Shown: positions 37,879 to 45,022 of the stretch, in pieces
How positions within the stretch are numbered: the first letter of the stretch is position 1
Layout of the letters: every line of letters starts with the position of its first letter
NCBI GenBank assembly: GCA_964391355.1
Contig: CAYMJY010000004.1
Coordinates: 1-45,073, forward strand
Source: an uncultured Dehalococcoidia bacterium
Lineage (GTDB): Bacteria > Chloroflexota > Dehalococcoidia > Lucifugimonadales > Australimonadaceae
Reading direction: 5' to 3'
DNA: 45,073 nucleotides
Translations under genes and position numbers: made by a program
The notes under the pieces: model-generated
What the model saw: the letters and a program-made list of their open reading frames with translations, nothing else
Told to the model about the DNA's origin: nothing
The model's database searches: none

Positions 37879-37908
37879 TTGACGCTTTTTACTAAGTCAA
37901 CCTATTAT
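37879..37908 (+). promoter_or_regulatory. sigma70-type promoter for greA-like gene
   Basis: TTGACG-N18-TATTAT. The ORF-track TTG start is this -35 hexamer. Confidence 0.6.
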
Positions 37909-37938
37909 GTGAATACTCCAATATTTAGGAAGTCTTGC

Positions 37939-38739
37939 ATGACGAACATGTCTGATGCGCTCACCGGCTATATAACAAGCACAGGGTTGATGAAAACTTC
38001 TAATGCCCAATATGCACAAAAGGAGTTACATCGCTTTGGTCGCTCAATTGGGTGGAATCGCCTAGTAGCGTCTTTAGCACCTCCTGAAATAGCTAGCTAT
38101 GCCGAAAGCGTTATTTCTGCAGGTGGTGATATTTCAGGAAGGTTGGGTTTCATTAAAGATTTTCTATCGTACTTGAAAAAACATGGCCTTTCCTCTCATT
38201 CTCTTGCGCCTCATGTGAAGATCCCTAGAGCTGCGTCTCAAGCAGCTGCGGCAATTAGCTCTAAAAATAACGAGACTATTCAGATTACCCCAGATGGACA
38301 TGCTTCAATGCTGAGTGAACTTGAAGGGTTGAAAAATCAAAGGGGCCCTATTGCTGAAACAATTGGCATAGCTCGATCGGATGGTGACATCTCTGACAAT
38401 GCGCCACTTGAAGCTGCAAGAGAGTTGCAAGTCAACACTGAAAGCAGAATCAGAGAGTTAGAAGAAATGCTACGTAGGAGCGTTGTTCTAGACCAAACCC
38501 GCCCTTCGGGTAAAGCTATCTTCATCAAAATAGGAAGTAAAGTCGAACTGATTGACGAGGAGTCTGGCAAAGCTACCTCTTACACTCTTGTTGATTCCGC
38601 TGAAGCTGATCCCAGCCTAGGGAAAATTTCCGTGGCATCTCCTGTAGGGAAAGCTGTAATGGGTCAAAAACAGGGACAAAGTATCAAAGTTCAGGCTCCT
38701 AAAGGTGAACGTCACTATCGAGTCAAATCTATTTCTTAA
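37939..38739 (+). CDS. greA: GreA/GreB-family elongation factor with extra N-terminal helical domain
   Basis: C-terminal half has ITPDG..ELE.LK, GDISDN, IGSKV, GKISVASPVGKA, VQAPKG. The ATG at 37939 follows SD AGGA. Confidence 0.85.
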   Translation: MTNMSDALTGYITSTGLMKTSNAQYAQKELHRFGRSIGWNRLVASLAPPEIASYAESVISAGGDISGRLGFIKDFLSYLKKHGLSSHSLAPHVKIPRAASQAAAAISSKNNETIQITPDGHASMLSELEGLKNQRGPIAETIGIARSDGDISDNAPLEAARELQVNTESRIRELEEMLRRSVVLDQTRPSGKAIFIKIGSKVELIDEESGKATSYTLVDSAEADPSLGKISVASPVGKAVMGQKQGQSIKVQAPKGERHYRVKSIS

Positions 38740-38747
38740 GGATCGCC

Positions 38748-39791
38748 ATGGCCGTTCCTGACATTCTCCGGCCGATACTGGGATTCCATTTGTATCGCTT
38801 TATTCTCCGCCCTTTTTTGTTCTTACTTAGCCCTGAATCCGCTCAGGCAATGGCTGGTTTCGCTCTGAGGATAAGGCCCCTTTGGCAGTTCCATAGAATC
38901 ATGACTAGGGTTGATTCAAAGTCACTAACAACACCTATGGGGGGATTTGAGGTTTCCAATCCCATAGGTTTAGCCGCAGGGTTCGACAAGAATTTGGAGT
39001 TTTTGAATAGCCTTGCGGATATGGGGTTTGGGTATTTAGTATGCGGCACAATTACTCTGGAACCCAGAAATGGAAACCCAAAACCAAGATTGTTAAGAAA
39101 TGTAAAGCGAAATTCACTTATTAATTCTTTAGGCTTCCCCGGACAAGGACTTAATTCAGCAGTTAGCAGGCTAACTGCCTATACTCACTCAGGGTATGTC
39201 ACTCCTGTGATTGTGAGCATCGCTGCTTTAAACGAGCAAGACACCCTATACTGCCACGAGACTCTTCAGCCCATGTGTAGTGCAATAGAATTAAATATAA
39301 GTTCTCCTAACACAGAGGGCGTCCGCGTGTATCAATCGAAAAATAATCTTAAGAATTTGCTCGAGAAATTAAACGACTCACGCAGCAAGCCATTATTCGT
39401 TAAATTACCCCCTTGGACCGACGATGCTTCCCGAGAGCAAGTACTATCGCTTGTTAAGGTTTGCAAAGAGACAGGTGTGACAGGTGTAACAGCATTTAAC
39501 TCACTACCAGTTAATTGTCCTAGTCTCGCGATAGGTAAGGGAGGTTTAAGTGGCAAACCATTATTTGAAGACATGATAGATTCACTGCCCTTGATTAGGT
39601 CCGAGCTAGGTTCTAATGCCATAATCAATGCATGCGGCGGTATCTCTTCATCCAATGATGTGATATCTGCGATAAATGCTGGTGCTAATTCTGTACAAAT
39701 CTACACTTCTATCATTTTTGAAGGTCCTGGCTTAGTTAATTCAATTATCCGCGACTTAGACACTTATCTCACAGAGGCAAGAAATGGCTAA
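38748..39791 (+). CDS. pyrD: dihydroorotate dehydrogenase, quinone-dependent (class 2)
   Basis: NPIGLAAGFDKN, GNPKPRL, LNISSPNT, FVKLPP, GGLSG, N-terminal membrane helix. Confidence 0.93.
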   Translation: MAVPDILRPILGFHLYRFILRPFLFLLSPESAQAMAGFALRIRPLWQFHRIMTRVDSKSLTTPMGGFEVSNPIGLAAGFDKNLEFLNSLADMGFGYLVCGTITLEPRNGNPKPRLLRNVKRNSLINSLGFPGQGLNSAVSRLTAYTHSGYVTPVIVSIAALNEQDTLYCHETLQPMCSAIELNISSPNTEGVRVYQSKNNLKNLLEKLNDSRSKPLFVKLPPWTDDASREQVLSLVKVCKETGVTGVTAFNSLPVNCPSLAIGKGGLSGKPLFEDMIDSLPLIRSELGSNAIINACGGISSSNDVISAINAGANSVQIYTSIIFEGPGLVNSIIRDLDTYLTEARNG

Positions 39792-40125
39792 AGGTGCTTC
39801 TTCAAAACCTCCCAATCATCACATTCAGGCTTTAGAAGAATTAACTGAAAAAATTGCGGCTACTACCGTGATGGCGCAAATGTATATAGAGTTACAAGAT
39901 TACCCTCTAAGGCTGATGCGTCAACTAATCACAGAGTATAAACGGAGGCAGACATCCGTTCCTGACCATTCTTTAGATCTCTCTCCCCTTTTAGGAGAAA
40001 CTGCGTTGAGATCGTTAGTAGAATCGGGTTTAGCCGAAAGAGTAGACGATTCGCCATATGCGATTCATACCTACATCCCCACCACGGAAGGTATTCGATT
40101 AGGCAGTTCATTACTCGGAACTTGA
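39784..40125 (+). CDS. hypothetical protein, possible winged-helix
   Basis: Overlaps the pyrD stop by 8 nt; ALRSLVESGLAE...YIPTTEG resembles a wHTH recognition helix and wing. Confidence 0.65.
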   Translation: MAKGASSKPPNHHIQALEELTEKIAATTVMAQMYIELQDYPLRLMRQLITEYKRRQTSVPDHSLDLSPLLGETALRSLVESGLAERVDDSPYAIHTYIPTTEGIRLGSSLLGT

Positions 40126-41130
40126 TTCTTGTGCAATTGGACGTGTGATTTCGATAAATCCTTGCCCCAAAACACGTTTCTGTTCATCCATTACCTCAAC
40201 TGCACTCTCCCAATATTCTATTCCTAACGCTTTACTTCTAAATTGGGAATGTTGGATCAATGGTGTCAAAATCAATTCCAATTTTGATTCAGGAATTTTT
40301 AGTACCCAAACATTTTCATTGTTCTGAAGTAAACGTCCAAATGAAAACTGACCTTGAGAGAGGTGAGTGAAATCAGCACCTAGAGACAAACTTCCATATT
40401 CATCAACTTCTGAATTATCAGAATCAAGTATTCTGGCAACCATGATATTTGTTCCGTCGTAAAGCTGAACGTTCGCCCAATCCCAGCCAATTAACGAAGG
40501 TTTGAAATTCCCCCACTGTTTGTCCATCCATCCAAGGCCTGAAACCTGAACTGCCACTCCCTGATCATTCACGATCGCACCCTCAGCTTTTAGCCGTGGT
40601 CTGGAATAATAATAACTGGGGCCAGCAGGCCCTAACTGAACTATACCTTCATTCCCATGGAGTATCGGATCAGTGTAGCTAGTTAGAGTAAGGTGCAATT
40701 TCGATTCTCCGAAGCTAGATTCTAAACTGTATGAATTACCATTAATCCCAGCTATGGACCAATCAAATAGATTAAAGTCAAAACCATTGTTAGTTTTCAA
40801 GGGAAGGCTTGGTAGAATTTTTATTTTTTCAGTAGTCAAATAAGTTTCCAGTTCGACATCAGCTAATGCACCTTGAGCTACATATAGCGTTCTACCGCTA
40901 CTGACTTCATGTATTTGGAACAAAACCTGGTGGAGTGCCCAACGTTTATGAGGATGCTCATTAGCTGTAAGGTGCACATTGAAATACCACCATTCTGTTT
41001 GTGAATTGTGTAAGGCTTCATCATCGGGCAAAGTAAGAGGTCGATAGCTCTCTTCGACCTGATTTGCCAAGCAACCGCAAAACACTAAAACCACTGAAAG
41101 CAGGCATAGATATAAGGCGGGGATTTTCAC
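40111..41130 (-). CDS. AttH/CrtC-like lipocalin-fold protein, probable lipoprotein
   Basis: EWWYF, YYYSRPRL, GWMDKQWG, GWDW, YWE; signal peptide ending in FCGC. Confidence 0.82.
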   Translation of the reverse strand: MKIPALYLCLLSVVLVFCGCLANQVEESYRPLTLPDDEALHNSQTEWWYFNVHLTANEHPHKRWALHQVLFQIHEVSSGRTLYVAQGALADVELETYLTTEKIKILPSLPLKTNNGFDFNLFDWSIAGINGNSYSLESSFGESKLHLTLTSYTDPILHGNEGIVQLGPAGPSYYYSRPRLKAEGAIVNDQGVAVQVSGLGWMDKQWGNFKPSLIGWDWANVQLYDGTNIMVARILDSDNSEVDEYGSLSLGADFTHLSQGQFSFGRLLQNNENVWVLKIPESKLELILTPLIQHSQFRSKALGIEYWESAVEVMDEQKRVLGQGFIEITRPIAQESSSE

Positions 41131-41338: not shown

Positions 41339-42913
41339 ATGAAAAGCGACTTTCTTATTGCAGTTACCCAATTGGCAGCTGAGCGAAACCTGCCCAGAGA
41401 TATGGTTTTATCGGCAGTCGAAGCCGCATTAGTATCTGCCTACAAAAAAAATGGTGCCCCAGGGACCGGCGACATTAAGGTGAATCTTGATCCAAATACG
41501 GGAGATGTATCCGTGTTTCAGCTCAAAACCGTCGTGGAAATCATAGAGGACGAAGAGACTGAATTAACACTGGAACAAGCAAAGAAGCTACAGCGCTCAA
41601 CTAAACCACAACTTGGTGATGTGATTGAATTCTTGATGGAACCACAAGAAGCAGGCAGGATTGAAGCTCAAACGGCCAAGCAAGTAGTGATTCAACGTTT
41701 ACGAGAAGCTGAACGAGAATTGGTTTTTACAGAGTTTGCAGAAAAAGAAAGTGAAGTTTTCACCGGCACCGTTCAGCGAAGTGAAGCGCGTTATGGTGGA
41801 CCTGTCACTCTAGACTTAAACGGCCGAGCCGAAGCTGTCTTGCCCCATGAGGAACAATCACCCTATGACAGATATCGACCCGGCGTGAAAGTTAAAATAA
41901 TGATTCTTTCAGTCGACAGGACCAGTAGGGGACCAGAGATAATTGTTACCAGAGCCCATCCCGACTTACTCCGTCGTTTATTCGAAATGGAAGTACCAGA
42001 GATTTACAACGGAGTAGTCGAAATCCGTGGGATATCAAGGGAAGCTGGCTCAAGAAGCAAAGTTGCCGTATTTGCTAAACAAGAAGGCGTTGATCCTGTA
42101 GGTGCATGTGTGGGATTGAGGGGAATACGAATCCAAAACATAGTAAATGAACTGCAGGGTGAAAAAATTGATGTTATTCAATGGTCGCGAGATCCTGCAG
42201 TGTTTTTAAGCAATGCGCTTAGCCCTGCACAACCCCTAAAAGTGGAAATTGATGAAATTGAACAAACAGCTTCGGTGGTTGTTCAAGACCGACAACTTTC
42301 ATTGGCGATCGGTAGAGATGGCCAAAATGCCAGATTAGCTGCAAAGCTCTGTGGCTTAAAGGTAGATATCAAGAGTTCAACCGAAATCGAAATTGAGCGG
42401 ATGAAACAAGATATAGAAGGCGCGGTAGCTAAGCAAGAAGCTGAATCTCAAGTTTCAGAAACTGGGGAAAGTGTGAAGGCGGACAAGCCTATAGTTTCTG
42501 CTGTCGAAGTACCCTTGCAACCAGTAGAGATTGATGATTCAGTTTCTGGTGAAGAAACCATCTTACTGGCTCCTGAATTAGAGAATGAGATCGCCGAAAT
42601 TGTTGAGCCTGGGGACTCGGAAGAACTCTTGTCAAAATTATCTGGCTCTCAAAGCGCTGAGGAAATATTAGCACTTGAGTCTTTAGATATAGAAGGCTCA
42701 GAGGTTCTGCAAACTACCGAGGAGGTAGTTGAAGAGGTAGTTGAAAATTCTGAAGAAGATATATGGGTAGTGCCAGATGTTAATGCCACTGCTAATTCGG
42801 GTCTGAGGTTTGCTGAAGATATTTTAGACAACGATGAAGGTTCATCCCGAGGCTCGGGCCGGAAACGTACAAAACGGAAAACAAATAACCGCACAAACCG
42901 TCAGCAGAATTAA
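41339..42913 (+). CDS. nusA: transcription termination/antitermination factor NusA with long acidic C-terminal extension
   Basis: [44 protein letters not shown]; SD AGGAGG. Confidence 0.97.
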
Positions 42914-42916
42914 CTG

Positions 42917-43252
42917 TTGCCTATGGTTCAGAAAGAGGAAAGATTGCGAAATAAGCACGTGCCAATTCGCAGTTGCGTTACCTGTAATTCCAAATCAACA
43001 AAGCGTTATTTGTACCGCCTTGTCCGGACAGAGGATGATCAAGTTGTTTTTGACGAAACGGGCAAAATGAATGGTAGGGGGGCTTATTTGTGTGACGATA
43101 AGAAGTGCTGGGAGAAGGCTATTTTAACTGATCGCCTGTCCAAGGCCTTAAAAACGAGTATAGATCCTTCTAATGCTGCCGCACTATTTTCATCCATAGG
43201 CTCATCAATAGTTTTACAAAAACAGGCTAGCGAAAGCTCATGGAGAACATAA
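42917..43252 (+). CDS. ylxR: YlxR/RnpM (DUF448) RNA-binding protein
   Basis: KHVPIRSCVTC, GRGAYLC, KALK; canonical position between nusA and infB. Confidence 0.92.
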   Translation: MPMVQKEERLRNKHVPIRSCVTCNSKSTKRYLYRLVRTEDDQVVFDETGKMNGRGAYLCDDKKCWEKAILTDRLSKALKTSIDPSNAAALFSSIGSSIVLQKQASESSWRT

Positions 43253-43255
43253 TTT

Positions 43256-45022
43256 ATGGTTAACCAAGACGAATCTACTCCAGCAACAAGAACAGTGGTT
43301 CTAAAACCGGTCCAGCTCCCAGAAATGGTCACTGTTGGGATGCTTGCTGAAAAGCTAGATGTAGACTCCGTACAGGTTATTAAGCTTCTAATGCGGGCTG
43401 GAATCTTTGCAAGTGTCAATGAAGTGATAGATTTCGAAACCGCGGCTTCAGTAGCTCGCCCACTAGGATATTCCGCTAAAAAAATCCTTGCTCCAGTTGG
43501 ATCTAAAGATATTGCAGTGTCCCCAGAGGATATAGCTAACCTTGTATCTCGTCCTGCCGTCGTGACCATATTGGGCCACGTTGATCACGGTAAAACATCT
43601 CTCTTGGATACTATCCGTAAATCTTCAATTGCAGAGGGTGAAGCCGGAGGTATAACTCAACATATTGGAGCTTATCAAGTTGAGCATGGGACTGAAATTT
43701 TAACGTTCATCGACACACCAGGGCACGAGGCATTTACTGCCATGCGGGCTAGAGGTGCGCAAACAACTGATATAGCTATCTTAGTAATAGCTGCAGATGA
43801 TGGTGTCATGCCGCAAACTGCAGAAGCCATAGACCATATAAAAGCAGCTAAAGTACCTATGATAGTCGCTATTAATAAAATCGATGTTATAGATTCTGAC
43901 CCCGAACGAATCAGGAGACAACTTTCTGAACGTGAGGTTTTAGTAGAGAAATGGGGCGGAGATACTCTAGACGTGGAGGTTTCAGCTAAAACTGGCACCG
44001 GCTTGGATGATTTACTTCAAACTATCCAGCTAGTAGCGGAAATGTCGGAACTGAAAGCAAACCCTAAACGTATGGCTATTGGTTCAGTTGTAGAAGCAAA
44101 GCTCGATAAAAGTAGAGGCCCTGTTGCTACCGTCTTAATACAAACGGGAACACTGAAAGTCGGTGAAACTATTGTAGTTGGTGCATCAAAAGGCAAAGTT
44201 AAAGCGCTGATAGACTCTAATGGGTCTAGAGTATCTGAAGCTGGGCCTTCTATGCCTGTAGAAGTTCTTGGAATTAGTGATCTACCAAGTGCTGGTGATC
44301 GTTTGGTTGCAGTAAGTGATGATCGTTCAGCCCGAGAAATTGTTGCGGAAAAGATACGGCTCGATGAAGAAAAACGGGGTGGGACTCTTCTAGAGCTAAG
44401 TTCACGAGCATCAACCTCAGGAACCGCACTTCACATTATTTTGAAAACTGATGTGGATGGTAGCGTAGACGCGGTGCAAAAAATACTTGGAGATATTGAA
44501 ACAACTGAGACTAGTATCAGAGTGATTCATGCTGCGCCGGGCACTGTCACAGAAAGTGACGTATTACTTGCTGCCGCTTCTGAAGCAATTATCCTCAGCT
44601 TCAACACTCGAACTGAGCCCGGTGCAAAAAAACTTGCAGAACAAGACGGTATCGAAATTAGGAATTACAGCATTATTTACAGATTGGCTGAAGATATAGA
44701 AAAGGCTTTGCTTGGTATGGCAGCACCAACTCTGCATGATGTTATTGAGGGTACACTAGAAGTTCGTGCTGTATTTGCTCTTAGCCGTGGACGTAATAGC
44801 GCGGGTTGTTTTGTCACCAACGGGCAGATTTCTAGAGGTTCCATGGCGCGCATAATGCGCGACGGGATTGAGATATTCGATGGTCCCATCAGTAGCCTTC
44901 GACGCTTCAAAGATGACGTAAGGCAAGTGTCTCAAGGGTATGAATGCGGTATCAGAATCGATGGATTCTCAGAATTTGTTGAAGGCGATATTATCGAATC
45001 TCATCGTCAAGAAAGTTTTTAG
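43256..45022 (+). CDS. infB: translation initiation factor IF-2 (short N-terminus)
   Basis: GHVDHGKT, GGITQHIGAY, DTPGHEAF, NKID, LRRFKDDV, GYECGI. Confidence 0.98.
   Translation: MVNQDESTPATRTVVLKPVQLPEMVTVGMLAEKLDVDSVQVIKLLMRAGIFASVNEVIDFETAASVARPLGYSAKKILAPVGSKDIAVSPEDIANLVSRPAVVTILGHVDHGKTSLLDTIRKSSIAEGEAGGITQHIGAYQVEHGTEILTFIDTPGHEAFTAMRARGAQTTDIAILVIAADDGVMPQTAEAIDHIKAAKVPMIVAINKIDVIDSDPERIRRQLSEREVLVEKWGGDTLDVEVSAKTGTGLDDLLQTIQLVAEMSELKANPKRMAIGSVVEAKLDKSRGPVATVLIQTGTLKVGETIVVGASKGKVKALIDSNGSRVSEAGPSMPVEVLGISDLPSAGDRLVAVSDDRSAREIVAEKIRLDEEKRGGTLLELSSRASTSGTALHIILKTDVDGSVDAVQKILGDIETTETSIRVIHAAPGTVTESDVLLAAASEAIILSFNTRTEPGAKKLAEQDGIEIRNYSIIYRLAEDIEKALLGMAAPTLHDVIEGTLEVRAVFALSRGRNSAGCFVTNGQISRGSMARIMRDGIEIFDGPISSLRRFKDDVRQVSQGYECGIRIDGFSEFVEGDIIESHRQESF

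What the first reader, a model, noticed from the sequence alone, without database searches (positions are those of the whole stretch)
37939..38739. Gre factor fused to a XerC/D-like tyrosine-recombinase core-binding domain
About 95 residues before the Gre coiled-coil (DALTGYI...SNAQYAQKELHRF...LASLAPPEIASYAES...SGRLGFIKDFLSYLKKHGL...LAPHVKIPR) follow the helix pattern of the integrase N-terminal SAM-like domain (T..AY..DL..F...DI..YL...S..R.LS.LRSFF.YL...G...NP...I..PK). No catalytic recombinase domain follows; an Ala-rich linker joins it to Gre. Inference: a secondary-channel factor tethered to DNA or to RNA polymerase through a domesticated recombinase module, possibly acting at specific loci. 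I recall longer GreA annotations in Dehalococcoidia, so this may be lineage-wide but uncharacterised.
Basis: partly seen in the sequence, partly recalled or inferred. Interest (0 to 1): 0.75.

Follow-up and report, generated by a model that had tools for sequence, protein, structure and literature searches.

The report
GreA with integrase-like N-terminal domain
This marine Dehalococcoidia gene encodes a normal-looking transcript-cleavage factor (GreA) carrying an extra N-terminal domain whose fold and profile match the DNA-binding "core-binding" domain of tyrosine recombinases; databases call these proteins only "GreA", and the extra domain's function is untested.

Summary
ORF 37939..38739 (+) encodes 266 aa. 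Residues 114-266 are a complete GreA, with both Pfam Gre domains and the acidic coiled-coil tip. Residues ~4-97 form an extra four-helix domain, joined by a 13-20 aa variable linker.

The domain misses the Pfam thresholds, but four tests point to the tyrosine-recombinase core-binding (SAM-like) domain:
- Weak Pfam and NCBIfam hits, in register, go to Phage_int_SAM_1/4 and XerD/XerC.
- The best PDB profile hit is an integrase N-domain.
- hhalign against XerD/XerC/3nrw gives 95% probability (score 47.7; column shuffles 11 ± 2).
- An AF2 model (pLDDT 94) has integrase core-binding domains as 18 of its top 19 Foldseek hits (TM about 0.6-0.76).

No recombinase catalytic domain is present. The fusion occupies 459 clusters at 50% identity, and every named one is Chloroflexota/Dehalococcoidia. 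It sits in one ORF in all 25 genome loci fetched. It has its own conserved promoter, lies among housekeeping genes and is seen in marine metatranscriptomes.

The function is inferred: a basic, conserved module held outside the RNA polymerase secondary channel, most likely contacting DNA, or otherwise RNAP. I found no literature on it. I rate it a new variant of a known kind, of moderate interest.

The parts
37879..37908 (+). Sigma-70-type promoter of the gene: -35 TTGACG, 18-nt spacer, -10 TATTAT
   Evidence: The consensus scan matches 10 of 12 positions. The TTGAC and TA..AT elements are invariant in an alignment of the upstream regions of 9 Dehalococcoidia loci.
37927..37932 (+). Ribosome-binding site AGGAAG, 6 nt upstream of the ATG
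   Evidence: Read directly from the sequence.
37939..38739 (+). Complete ORF (266 aa plus stop): GreA with an N-terminal core-binding-like domain
   Evidence: P0003 is 98% identical over 100% of the length.
37948..38229 (+). Tyrosine-recombinase core-binding (SAM-like) type four-helix domain, aa 4-97. Helices are at 4-15, 23-37, 48-61 and 65-81, followed by the conserved tail SLAPHVKIPR.
   Evidence: AF2 pLDDT is 93.7. Foldseek hits are integrase core-binding domains with TM 0.57-0.76. hhalign against XerD/XerC/3nrw gives 95.3% probability, with a shuffle control. Sub-threshold Pfam and NCBIfam hits agree. Nine basic positions are conserved.
38230..38277 (+). Linker, aa 98-113 (AASQAAAAISSKNNET). 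Its sequence varies across the family but its length stays within 13-20 aa.
   Evidence: Mean pairwise identity is 17%, against 44-57% for the flanking domains, and length is 13-20 aa. AF2 models it as a lower-confidence helix, pLDDT about 68.
38278..38487 (+). Gre N-terminal coiled-coil domain, aa 114-183. The acidic tip is D150 (38386-38388) and D153 (38395-38397).
   Evidence: Pfam PF03449 E = 2.8e-17. D150 is invariant; position 153 is E in at least 90% of the family and D in this protein.
38524..38736 (+). Gre C-terminal globular domain, aa 196-266 (the part that docks on RNA polymerase in known Gre factors)
   Evidence: Pfam PF01272 E = 2.1e-23. Foldseek of the full-length model matches GreA/Gfh1/GreB with E from 1e-14 to 5e-10.

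Best explanation
Shown: the gene encodes the housekeeping-type GreA of a marine Dehalococcoidia bacterium. Both Gre domains and the acidic coiled-coil tip are intact. A roughly 95-aa four-helix domain is fused to the N-terminus through a flexible linker of about 15 aa. That domain is a remote homologue of the core-binding (SAM-like) domain of XerC/XerD/lambda-Int-type tyrosine recombinases, and it has no catalytic partner domain.

Inferred: the Gre part works as in E. coli. Its C-terminal domain docks on the rim of the RNA polymerase secondary channel, and its coiled coil delivers two acidic residues to the active site to stimulate cleavage of backtracked RNA. The N-terminus of a Gre factor lies at the mouth of that channel, so the appended domain must sit outside the channel on a short tether. 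Its conserved basic residues are on helices B and D and in the HVKIPR tail, the elements that touch DNA in recombinases. The domain has a basic pI while the Gre part is acidic. I therefore propose that it makes a low-specificity contact with nucleic acid on or near the elongation complex, most plausibly duplex DNA. Such a contact would raise the factor's occupancy on transcribing or stalled polymerases.
For: - Gre identity. Acidic tip conserved.
- Integrase core-binding homology from sequence: 11/53 and 10/53 family members give sub-threshold Phage_int_SAM_1 and SAM_4 hits, and no other family recurs in more than 2 members. The family consensus hits SAM_4 and SAM_1 at E about 0.002 in register, and XerD/XerC are the top NCBIfam hits. 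The best PDB profile hit is the integrase N-domain 3nrw. hhalign gives 95.3% probability and score 47.7, against 11.0 +/- 2.1 (max 18.8) for 200 column shuffles.
- Integrase core-binding homology from structure: 18 of the top 19 Foldseek hits for the pLDDT-94 model are integrase core-binding domains.
- Selection: the core-binding domain is conserved at 44% mean pairwise identity, against 57% and 50% for the Gre domains and 17% for the linker, whose length is constrained to 13-20 aa.
- Charge: positions 32, 35, 41, 68, 73, 80, 81, 94 and 97 are K/R in 75% of members at position 80 and in at least 91% at the other eight. Domain mean pI is 9.3 and mean net charge +3.4, against -1.6 for the Gre part. 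K73 aligns with the conserved Arg of XerC/XerD helix D.
- Housekeeping status: conserved own promoter; conserved ftsH / greA-pyrD synteny with nusA and infB nearby; transcribed in marine metatranscriptomes.
- The fusion is universal in the sample: 25/25 loci, and in 26/26 records (loci plus the window) no second Gre gene in about 290 kb.
Against: - No binding or activity data exist.
- The window protein's N-domain alone reaches no Pfam threshold, and Foldseek E-values are modest (0.045-1.3).
- Several XerD helix-B arginines align with Q or K rather than conserved R.
- The domain also has a conserved acidic set (E29, E50, E56, D64), which fits a protein-protein interface better than a DNA interface.
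- Net positive charge is moderate, and a few members are near neutral.
- Isolated recombinase core-binding domains bind DNA only weakly (general knowledge).
- The geometry (reach from the channel rim to DNA) rests on knowledge of Gre-RNAP structures and was not modelled here.
Confidence: 0.45

Rival explanations
1. The core-binding-like domain is a protein-protein module. It docks on a lineage-specific surface of Dehalococcoidia RNA polymerase, or on another factor. This would give the Gre factor extra affinity or regulated access to the secondary channel, much as the N-terminal helical bundle of eukaryotic TFIIS binds other transcription proteins rather than DNA.
For: Conserved acidic positions lie on helix C and the C-D loop: E29 98%, E50 89%, E56 83%, D64 92%. 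Net charge is only moderately positive. Linker length is tightly constrained, which suggests a fixed docking distance. The domain is found only with Gre, never alone or in other architectures, among the top 150 cluster representatives.
Against: No partner has been identified. The nine conserved basic positions lie on the helices that contact DNA in recombinases. The fold family is a dedicated DNA-binding module in every characterised case returned by Foldseek.
Confidence: 0.3
2. The domain confers targeting. It recognises a particular DNA sequence or structure (branched DNA, or a dif-like or promoter-proximal site), so the Gre factor acts at specific loci or at transcription-replication or recombination conflict sites.
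For: Recombinase core-binding domains read specific core sites as part of the full enzyme (general knowledge). The basic helices are conserved.
Against: The gene's context and promoter are those of a general housekeeping factor. No repeated candidate site was looked for or found. The upstream conservation seen is just a sigma-70 promoter. Isolated core-binding domains have weak specificity. The family's DNA-facing positions are mostly K/R, which suggests backbone contacts.
Confidence: 0.1
3. The Gre part is a Gfh1-like inhibitor or competitor of the secondary channel rather than a cleavage stimulator, and the extra domain modulates that role.
For: The best PDB sequence matches are a Gfh1/GreA chimera and Gfh1 (E from 5e-19 to 2e-17), slightly ahead of E. 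coli GreA at 2e-16. The protein scores below all NCBIfam GreA equivalog cutoffs.
Against: The DxxE/D-N-A acidic tip motif is invariant or nearly so. The best NCBIfam models are all GreA. It is the only Gre gene seen in each sampled locus, and it sits in a housekeeping neighbourhood.
Confidence: 0.05
4. Artefact: either a mis-called start or fused ORFs, or a generic four-helix bundle that resembles integrase core-binding domains by chance.
For: The window protein's own Pfam hit is insignificant (Phage_int_SAM_5, E = 0.18).
Against: There are 459 clusters with the domain, 316 of them at E <= 1e-10. All 25 genome loci have one continuous ORF. The ribosome-binding site and conserved promoter sit upstream of the long form. 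A transcript contig crosses the junction. hhalign scores about 17 SD above shuffles. Fold hits go almost exclusively to integrases.
Confidence: 0.02

Closest known systems
Canonical GreA (E. coli GreA, 158 aa; PDB 1GRJ) and Thermus Gfh1/GreA
   Same: Residues 114-266 align end to end with GreA/Gfh1 and match both Pfam Gre domains. The acidic tip motif GD-x-x-(E/D)-NA is conserved. The predicted fold matches GreA/GreB/Gfh1.
   Different: This protein carries about 113 extra N-terminal residues (a folded 95-aa domain plus a linker). It scores below every NCBIfam GreA equivalog cutoff, for example 139 bits against 167. Position 153 is Asp rather than the usual Glu.
Core-binding (N-terminal SAM-like) domain of tyrosine recombinases: XerD (1A0P), XerC, lambda Int (1Z19/1P7D), Tn1549 Int (6EN2), Haloarcula integrase N-domain (3NRW); Pfam Phage_int_SAM_1/4
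   Same: Both have a four-helix bundle of about 95 aa, with TM 0.57-0.76. Profile-profile comparison gives 95% probability over 89 columns, running from helix A to the '...v..PK/PR' tail. The conserved basic residue on helix D (K73) aligns with XerD R80.
   Different: No catalytic domain follows, so no recombination is possible. Sequence similarity is below the Pfam gathering thresholds. The XerD helix-B arginines are not conserved as Arg. In the sequences examined the domain occurs only fused to Gre.
Long GreA fusion proteins of Chlamydia (NCBIfam NF004969, 'transcript cleavage factor/unknown domain fusion protein', about 718 aa) and spirochaetes (NF011309, about 906 aa)
   Same: All are Gre factors with a lineage-specific, uncharacterised N-terminal addition ahead of an intact Gre module.
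   Different: Those models match this protein only over its Gre part: aa 107-265 matches positions 560-712, and aa 139-266 matches positions 776-901. Their N-terminal regions are far larger and show no similarity to this domain.
Eukaryotic/archaeal TFIIS (functional analogue, not a homologue; from general knowledge)
   Same: TFIIS is also a transcript-cleavage factor that reaches the active site through the polymerase pore and carries an N-terminal helical-bundle domain. That domain is dispensable for cleavage and is used for other contacts.
   Different: The folds and ancestry are unrelated. TFIIS domain I binds proteins, whereas the partner of the domain here is unknown.
MrpR of Bacillus phage SPbeta (PDB 8A0A)
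   Same: MrpR is another case of a tyrosine-recombinase-derived protein that acts in transcription regulation. It appears in the Foldseek list (rank 20).
   Different: MrpR keeps the whole recombinase fold and acts as a DNA-binding regulator. Here only the core-binding domain is retained, and it is attached to an RNAP-binding factor. The structural match to MrpR is weak (TM 0.43).

Membership tests
GreA/GreB transcript-cleavage factors | N-terminal antiparallel coiled-coil domain (Pfam PF03449) | tested here: met
   aa 114-183 score 63.1 bits against a cutoff of 24.5, covering the profile 1-71/71. AF2 models helices at 118-147 and 155-180.
GreA/GreB transcript-cleavage factors | C-terminal globular domain that binds the RNAP secondary-channel rim (Pfam PF01272) | tested here: met
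   aa 196-266 score 82.5 bits against a cutoff of 26.9. Foldseek matches GreA/GreB/Gfh1.
GreA/GreB transcript-cleavage factors | Two conserved acidic residues at the coiled-coil tip (E. coli D41 and E44) | tested here: met
   D150 is invariant in 53 sequences. Position 153 is E in at least 90% of members and D in the window protein. N154, A155 and P156 are conserved.
GreA/GreB transcript-cleavage factors | Score above the NCBIfam GreA equivalog cutoffs | tested here: not met
   The best scores are 139 bits against 167 (NF001261), 137.1 against 145 (NF001263) and 128.9 against 139 (TIGR01462). This is a divergent GreA. The models cover only aa 110-266.
GreA/GreB transcript-cleavage factors | Stimulates endonucleolytic cleavage of backtracked RNA by RNAP | not testable with these tools
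   This needs an in vitro transcription or cleavage assay.
Tyrosine recombinases (XerC/XerD/lambda Int) | N-terminal core-binding (SAM-like) helical domain | tested here: met
   The fold matches: 18 of the top 19 Foldseek hits are integrase core-binding domains, TM 0.57-0.76. hhalign gives 95.3% probability with a shuffle control. The top PDB, Pfam and NCBIfam weak hits are all integrases.
Tyrosine recombinases (XerC/XerD/lambda Int) | C-terminal catalytic domain with the R-K-H-R-H/W-Y active site | tested here: not met
   There is no Phage_integrase hit. Everything after the linker is Gre. The protein is therefore not a recombinase and only shares one domain with that family.
Pfam Phage_int_SAM_1 / SAM_4 / SAM_5 domain families | Score at or above the gathering threshold | tested here: not met
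   For the window protein, SAM_5 scores 12.6 bits against 22.3 when aa 1-104 are scanned, and nothing is found when aa 1-100 are scanned. The best family member reaches E = 3.9e-4, and the consensus scores 18.8 bits against 27 and 18.6 against 22.3. This is a remote relative outside the current Pfam family boundaries.
Chlamydial/spirochaetal long GreA fusions (NF004969, NF011309) | Shared N-terminal fusion domain | tested here: not met
   The matches are restricted to the Gre module at the C-terminal end of those models, at 37.5 and 75.4 bits against cutoffs of 697 and 714.

The most novel reading that the evidence does not exclude
The retained recombinase core-binding domain may give this Gre factor real DNA sequence or DNA structure recognition. 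Possible targets are branched or cruciform DNA, R-loop junctions, or a dif-like or promoter-proximal site. That would make it the first secondary-channel factor recruited to particular genomic sites or conflict structures, rather than acting wherever RNAP backtracks.
Probability: 0.1. Interest if true: 0.85.

Novelty: new variant of a known kind. Interest (0 to 1): 0.55.

Why it matters
Gre factors are usually seen as small, free-standing proteins that find RNA polymerase only through the secondary channel. Here an entire bacterial class has fixed a DNA-binding-type module onto its GreA. That class includes the abundant ocean SAR202 group and the organohalide-respiring Dehalococcoidales. If the module contacts DNA or RNAP, it is a natural experiment in how a cleavage factor can be tethered to elongation complexes. 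It would also be a clean case of a recombinase domain reused in transcription. The annotation point is practical: hundreds of database entries named just "GreA" hide an unrecognised domain that current Pfam models miss. A dedicated profile would fix this.

Tried and rejected
- A word-indexed homologue search with the N-domain alone found only 2 fragments. This was a sensitivity limit, not rarity: the full-length search and the exhaustive profile search found hundreds.
I repeated it with a 10-sequence subfamily alignment, so the genome census is biased towards relatives of the window protein.
- The search for homologous proteins with a XerD/XerC/3nrw seed, meant to build a deeper integrase profile, timed out. 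I did not repeat it. Instead I used the 3-sequence profile with a shuffle control.
- The listing of cluster members gave few organism names. Every name returned was Chloroflexi/Chloroflexota/Dehalococcoidia.
- Unusual lengths among the representatives turned out to be contig-end fragments or chimeras with unrelated sequence (P0246, P0191, P0211, P0144, P0145). They are not alternative architectures.
- I considered the TTG start at 37879 (286 aa) and rejected it, because it coincides with the conserved -35 element.
- Five literature searches found nothing on this architecture; a sixth, on the long Chlamydia/Borrelia GreA fusions, also returned nothing relevant.
- I could not test whether the same genomes also carry a short canonical greA. 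No second Gre gene occurs in the about 290 kb sampled.
- Model coordinates are not exposed by the tools, so I could not compute surface electrostatics or superpose the model on DNA-bound integrases.

Full report
**1. What is in the sequence**

The ORF at window 37939..38739 (+) encodes 266 aa.
- Pfam assigns aa 114-183 to GreA_GreB_N (63.1 bits) and aa 196-266 to the GreA/GreB C-terminal domain (82.5 bits). Both are far above their cutoffs.
- The best NCBIfam models are all GreA and cover aa 110-266, but each scores below its equivalog cutoff. This is a divergent GreA.
- PDB sequence matches are Gfh1/GreA/GreB over aa 114-265.
- The first ~110 residues get no significant Pfam or NCBIfam assignment. 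The only hit is Phage_int_SAM_5 at E = 0.18.

**2. The long form is real**

- An AGGAAG ribosome-binding site lies 6 nt upstream of the ATG.
- A sigma-70-like promoter lies at 37879-37908 (TTGACG-18-TATTAT). Its TTGAC and TA..AT elements are invariant in nine related loci. This also rules out the upstream TTG as a start codon.
- A full-length search returned 193 proteins at E <= 1e-10. The best 120 are almost all 257-305 aa and nearly all cover 90-100% of the query. Where named, they are called "transcription elongation factor GreA" from Dehalococcoidia or Chloroflexota.
- In all 25 genome loci fetched, the N-domain and the Gre part are in one ORF. Across those loci and the window, no second Gre or N-domain copy occurs in the ~290 kb sampled.
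- Marine metatranscriptome contigs cover 38059-38622, and one contig crosses the domain junction.

**3. What the N-terminal domain is**

I built an alignment (A1) of 53 diverse N-domains and ran five tests.
- *Pfam scan of every member.* Phage_int_SAM_1 is hit by 11 of 53 members, Phage_int_SAM_4 by 10 (best E = 3.9e-4), Phage_int_M by 2 and SAM_5 by 1. No other family recurs in more than 2 members.
- *Family consensus.* Its two best Pfam hits are SAM_4 and SAM_1 (E about 0.002), in register: query 21-57 against profile 22-59. Its only two NCBIfam hits at E <= 10 are XerD and XerC, with query 22-93 against model 22-96.
- *A1 profile against PDB sequences.* The best hit is the N-terminal domain of a Haloarcula integrase, 3NRW (E = 0.041), covering 88 of 95 profile positions.
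- *Profile-profile comparison.* A1 against a small alignment of E. coli XerD 1-111, XerC 1-112 (taken from the annotated MG1655 genome) and the 3NRW fragment gives 95.3% probability, E = 2.3e-8, over 89 columns. As a control, 200 column-shuffled versions of the template scored 11.0 +/- 2.1 (max 18.8), against 47.7 for the real one. The reversed template scored 8.7.
- *Structure.* AlphaFold2 with A1 gives a confident four-helix model (pLDDT 93.7, pTM 0.85). Foldseek against the PDB returns recombinase core-binding domains in the first 19 places (one, 2KOB, is labelled only by its locus tag): 3NRW, lambda Int, Tn1549 Int, several structural-genomics "integrase SAM-like" domains and XerD. TM-scores are 0.57-0.76 and Foldseek probabilities 0.72-1.0, with modest E-values of 0.045-1.3.

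The full-length model matches GreA/Gfh1/GreB first and integrase core-binding domains next. No PDB chain contains both. Everything after the linker is Gre, so there is no recombinase catalytic domain. The domain is therefore a remote homologue of the tyrosine-recombinase core-binding (SAM-like) domain. It lies outside the current Pfam family boundaries.

**4. Distribution**

- An exhaustive profile search of 1.84 billion cluster representatives found 459 clusters at E <= 1e-3 and 316 at E <= 1e-10. The 150 listed are either ~255-285-aa Gre fusions or fragments.
- Members of odd length are contig-end fragments or chimeras.
- Genome hits are all MAGs labelled Dehalococcoidia (one of them a SAR202 cluster bacterium), Dehalococcoidales/Dehalococcoidaceae or Chloroflexota. 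All names recovered from cluster look-ups are Chloroflexi/Chloroflexota.
- The window itself occurs in marine and seawater metagenomes.
- In the closer relatives (L001-L015) greA is followed directly by pyrD. Most of them also have a divergent ftsH upstream and a 113-aa ORF plus a CrtC-like gene downstream. nusA follows where the locus extends that far, and the window also carries infB. This is a housekeeping neighbourhood.

**5. Anatomy relevant to mechanism**

- The Gre tip motif is intact. D150 is invariant. Position 153 is Glu in at least 90% of members and Asp in this protein. N154, A155 and P156 are conserved.
- The core-binding-like domain is under purifying selection comparable to the Gre domains: mean pairwise identity is 44%, against 57% and 50%. 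The linker is only 17% identical but is held to 13-20 residues.
- AF2 gives a low pTM (0.56) for the whole protein and lower confidence in the linker. This fits two independently folded units on a tether.
- Nine positions in the domain are conserved as K/R: 32 and 35 on helix B; 41 in the B-C loop; 68, 73, 80 and 81 on helix D; 94 and 97 in the HVKIPR tail. Conservation is 75% at position 80 and at least 91% at the others.
- K73 aligns with XerD R80 on helix D.
- The domain is basic (mean pI 9.3, net charge +3.4), while the Gre part is slightly acidic (-1.6).
- There is also a conserved acidic set (E29, E50, E56, D64), centred on helix C and the C-D loop.

**6. Mechanism**

The following is inference. 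Established Gre-RNAP structures (GreB-RNAP and Gfh1-RNAP; general knowledge) show the C-terminal domain bound at the rim of the secondary channel, with the coiled coil inserted into it. The N-terminus of the factor lies at the channel mouth. An N-terminal domain on a ~15-aa tether must therefore stay outside the channel, on the downstream face of the enzyme.

This fold is a DNA-binding module in every characterised relative, and its basic residues are conserved on the helices those relatives use for DNA contact. The most likely role is therefore a low-specificity nucleic-acid contact that increases occupancy on elongation or stalled complexes.

The main rival is a protein-protein docking role on RNAP or on another factor, for which the conserved acidic patch speaks. 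Locus-specific targeting is possible but unsupported. None of these could be tested with the available tools.

**7. Comparison with what is known, and novelty**

The protein is a member of the GreA/GreB family by domain content and tip motif. It is not a tyrosine recombinase, because it has no catalytic domain. The long Gre fusions of Chlamydia and spirochaetes are analogous in idea but unrelated in their added domains.

Literature searches in the available library found no description of a Gre factor with an integrase SAM-like domain, or of a Chloroflexi GreA extension. The precomputed Pfam annotation of all homologues lists only the two Gre domains.

I rate this a new variant of a known kind. 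It is a real, lineage-wide and apparently undescribed architecture whose function is open. Interest is moderate. It would rise if DNA or structure-specific binding were shown.

Noticed in passing
window 37879-37908; L001-L012 about 60-120 nt upstream of the greA start: The long greA has its own strongly conserved sigma-70-type promoter. TTCGTTGAC(G/A) and CTAGAAT are conserved, with TTGAC and TA..AT invariant, in 9/9 aligned Dehalococcoidia loci, although the rest of the intergenic region is unalignable.
   Followed up: partly
window 39784-40125 (+): A 113-aa ORF with no Pfam match has a start that overlaps the stop of the pyrD-like gene. It is conserved in the same position in most related loci (34-56% identity), so it is a real but unassigned gene that is probably co-transcribed with greA-pyrD.
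   Followed up: partly
window 40111-41130 (-): A CrtC-like double-lipocalin protein (PF07143 plus PF17186) has a lipoprotein-like N-terminus (…LVFCGC). It is conserved convergent to the greA-pyrD-orf113 unit in related loci.
   Followed up: no
window 38748-39791 (+): A dihydroorotate dehydrogenase (PF01180) starts 9 nt after the greA stop and has a ~55-aa hydrophobic N-terminal extension, as in membrane-associated class 2 enzymes. The greA-pyrD adjacency is conserved in L001 and L003-L015, i.e. every close locus long enough to show it.
   Followed up: partly
window 41339-45022 (+): A nusA gene (524 aa, longer than the N-terminal and KH domains need), a small 111-aa ORF and infB (588 aa) lie just downstream. 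The long greA therefore sits next to the classical nusA-infB transcription/translation operon.
   Followed up: no
protein P0131 (306 aa, from the representative search): One cluster has the core-binding-like domain and the first residues of the Gre coiled coil, followed by a long Q/E-rich coiled coil with no acidic tip and no Gre C-domain. It is either a real variant architecture or an assembly chimera.
   Followed up: no
window 37948-38229 (core-binding-like domain), family alignment A1: Besides the basic positions, the domain has a conserved acidic set: E29 98%, E50 89%, E56 83%, D64 92%. These fall within the motifs ELHRF, PPEVAxYAE and GGD. This is unusual for a purely DNA-binding module and hints at a second interface, for a protein partner.
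   Followed up: partly
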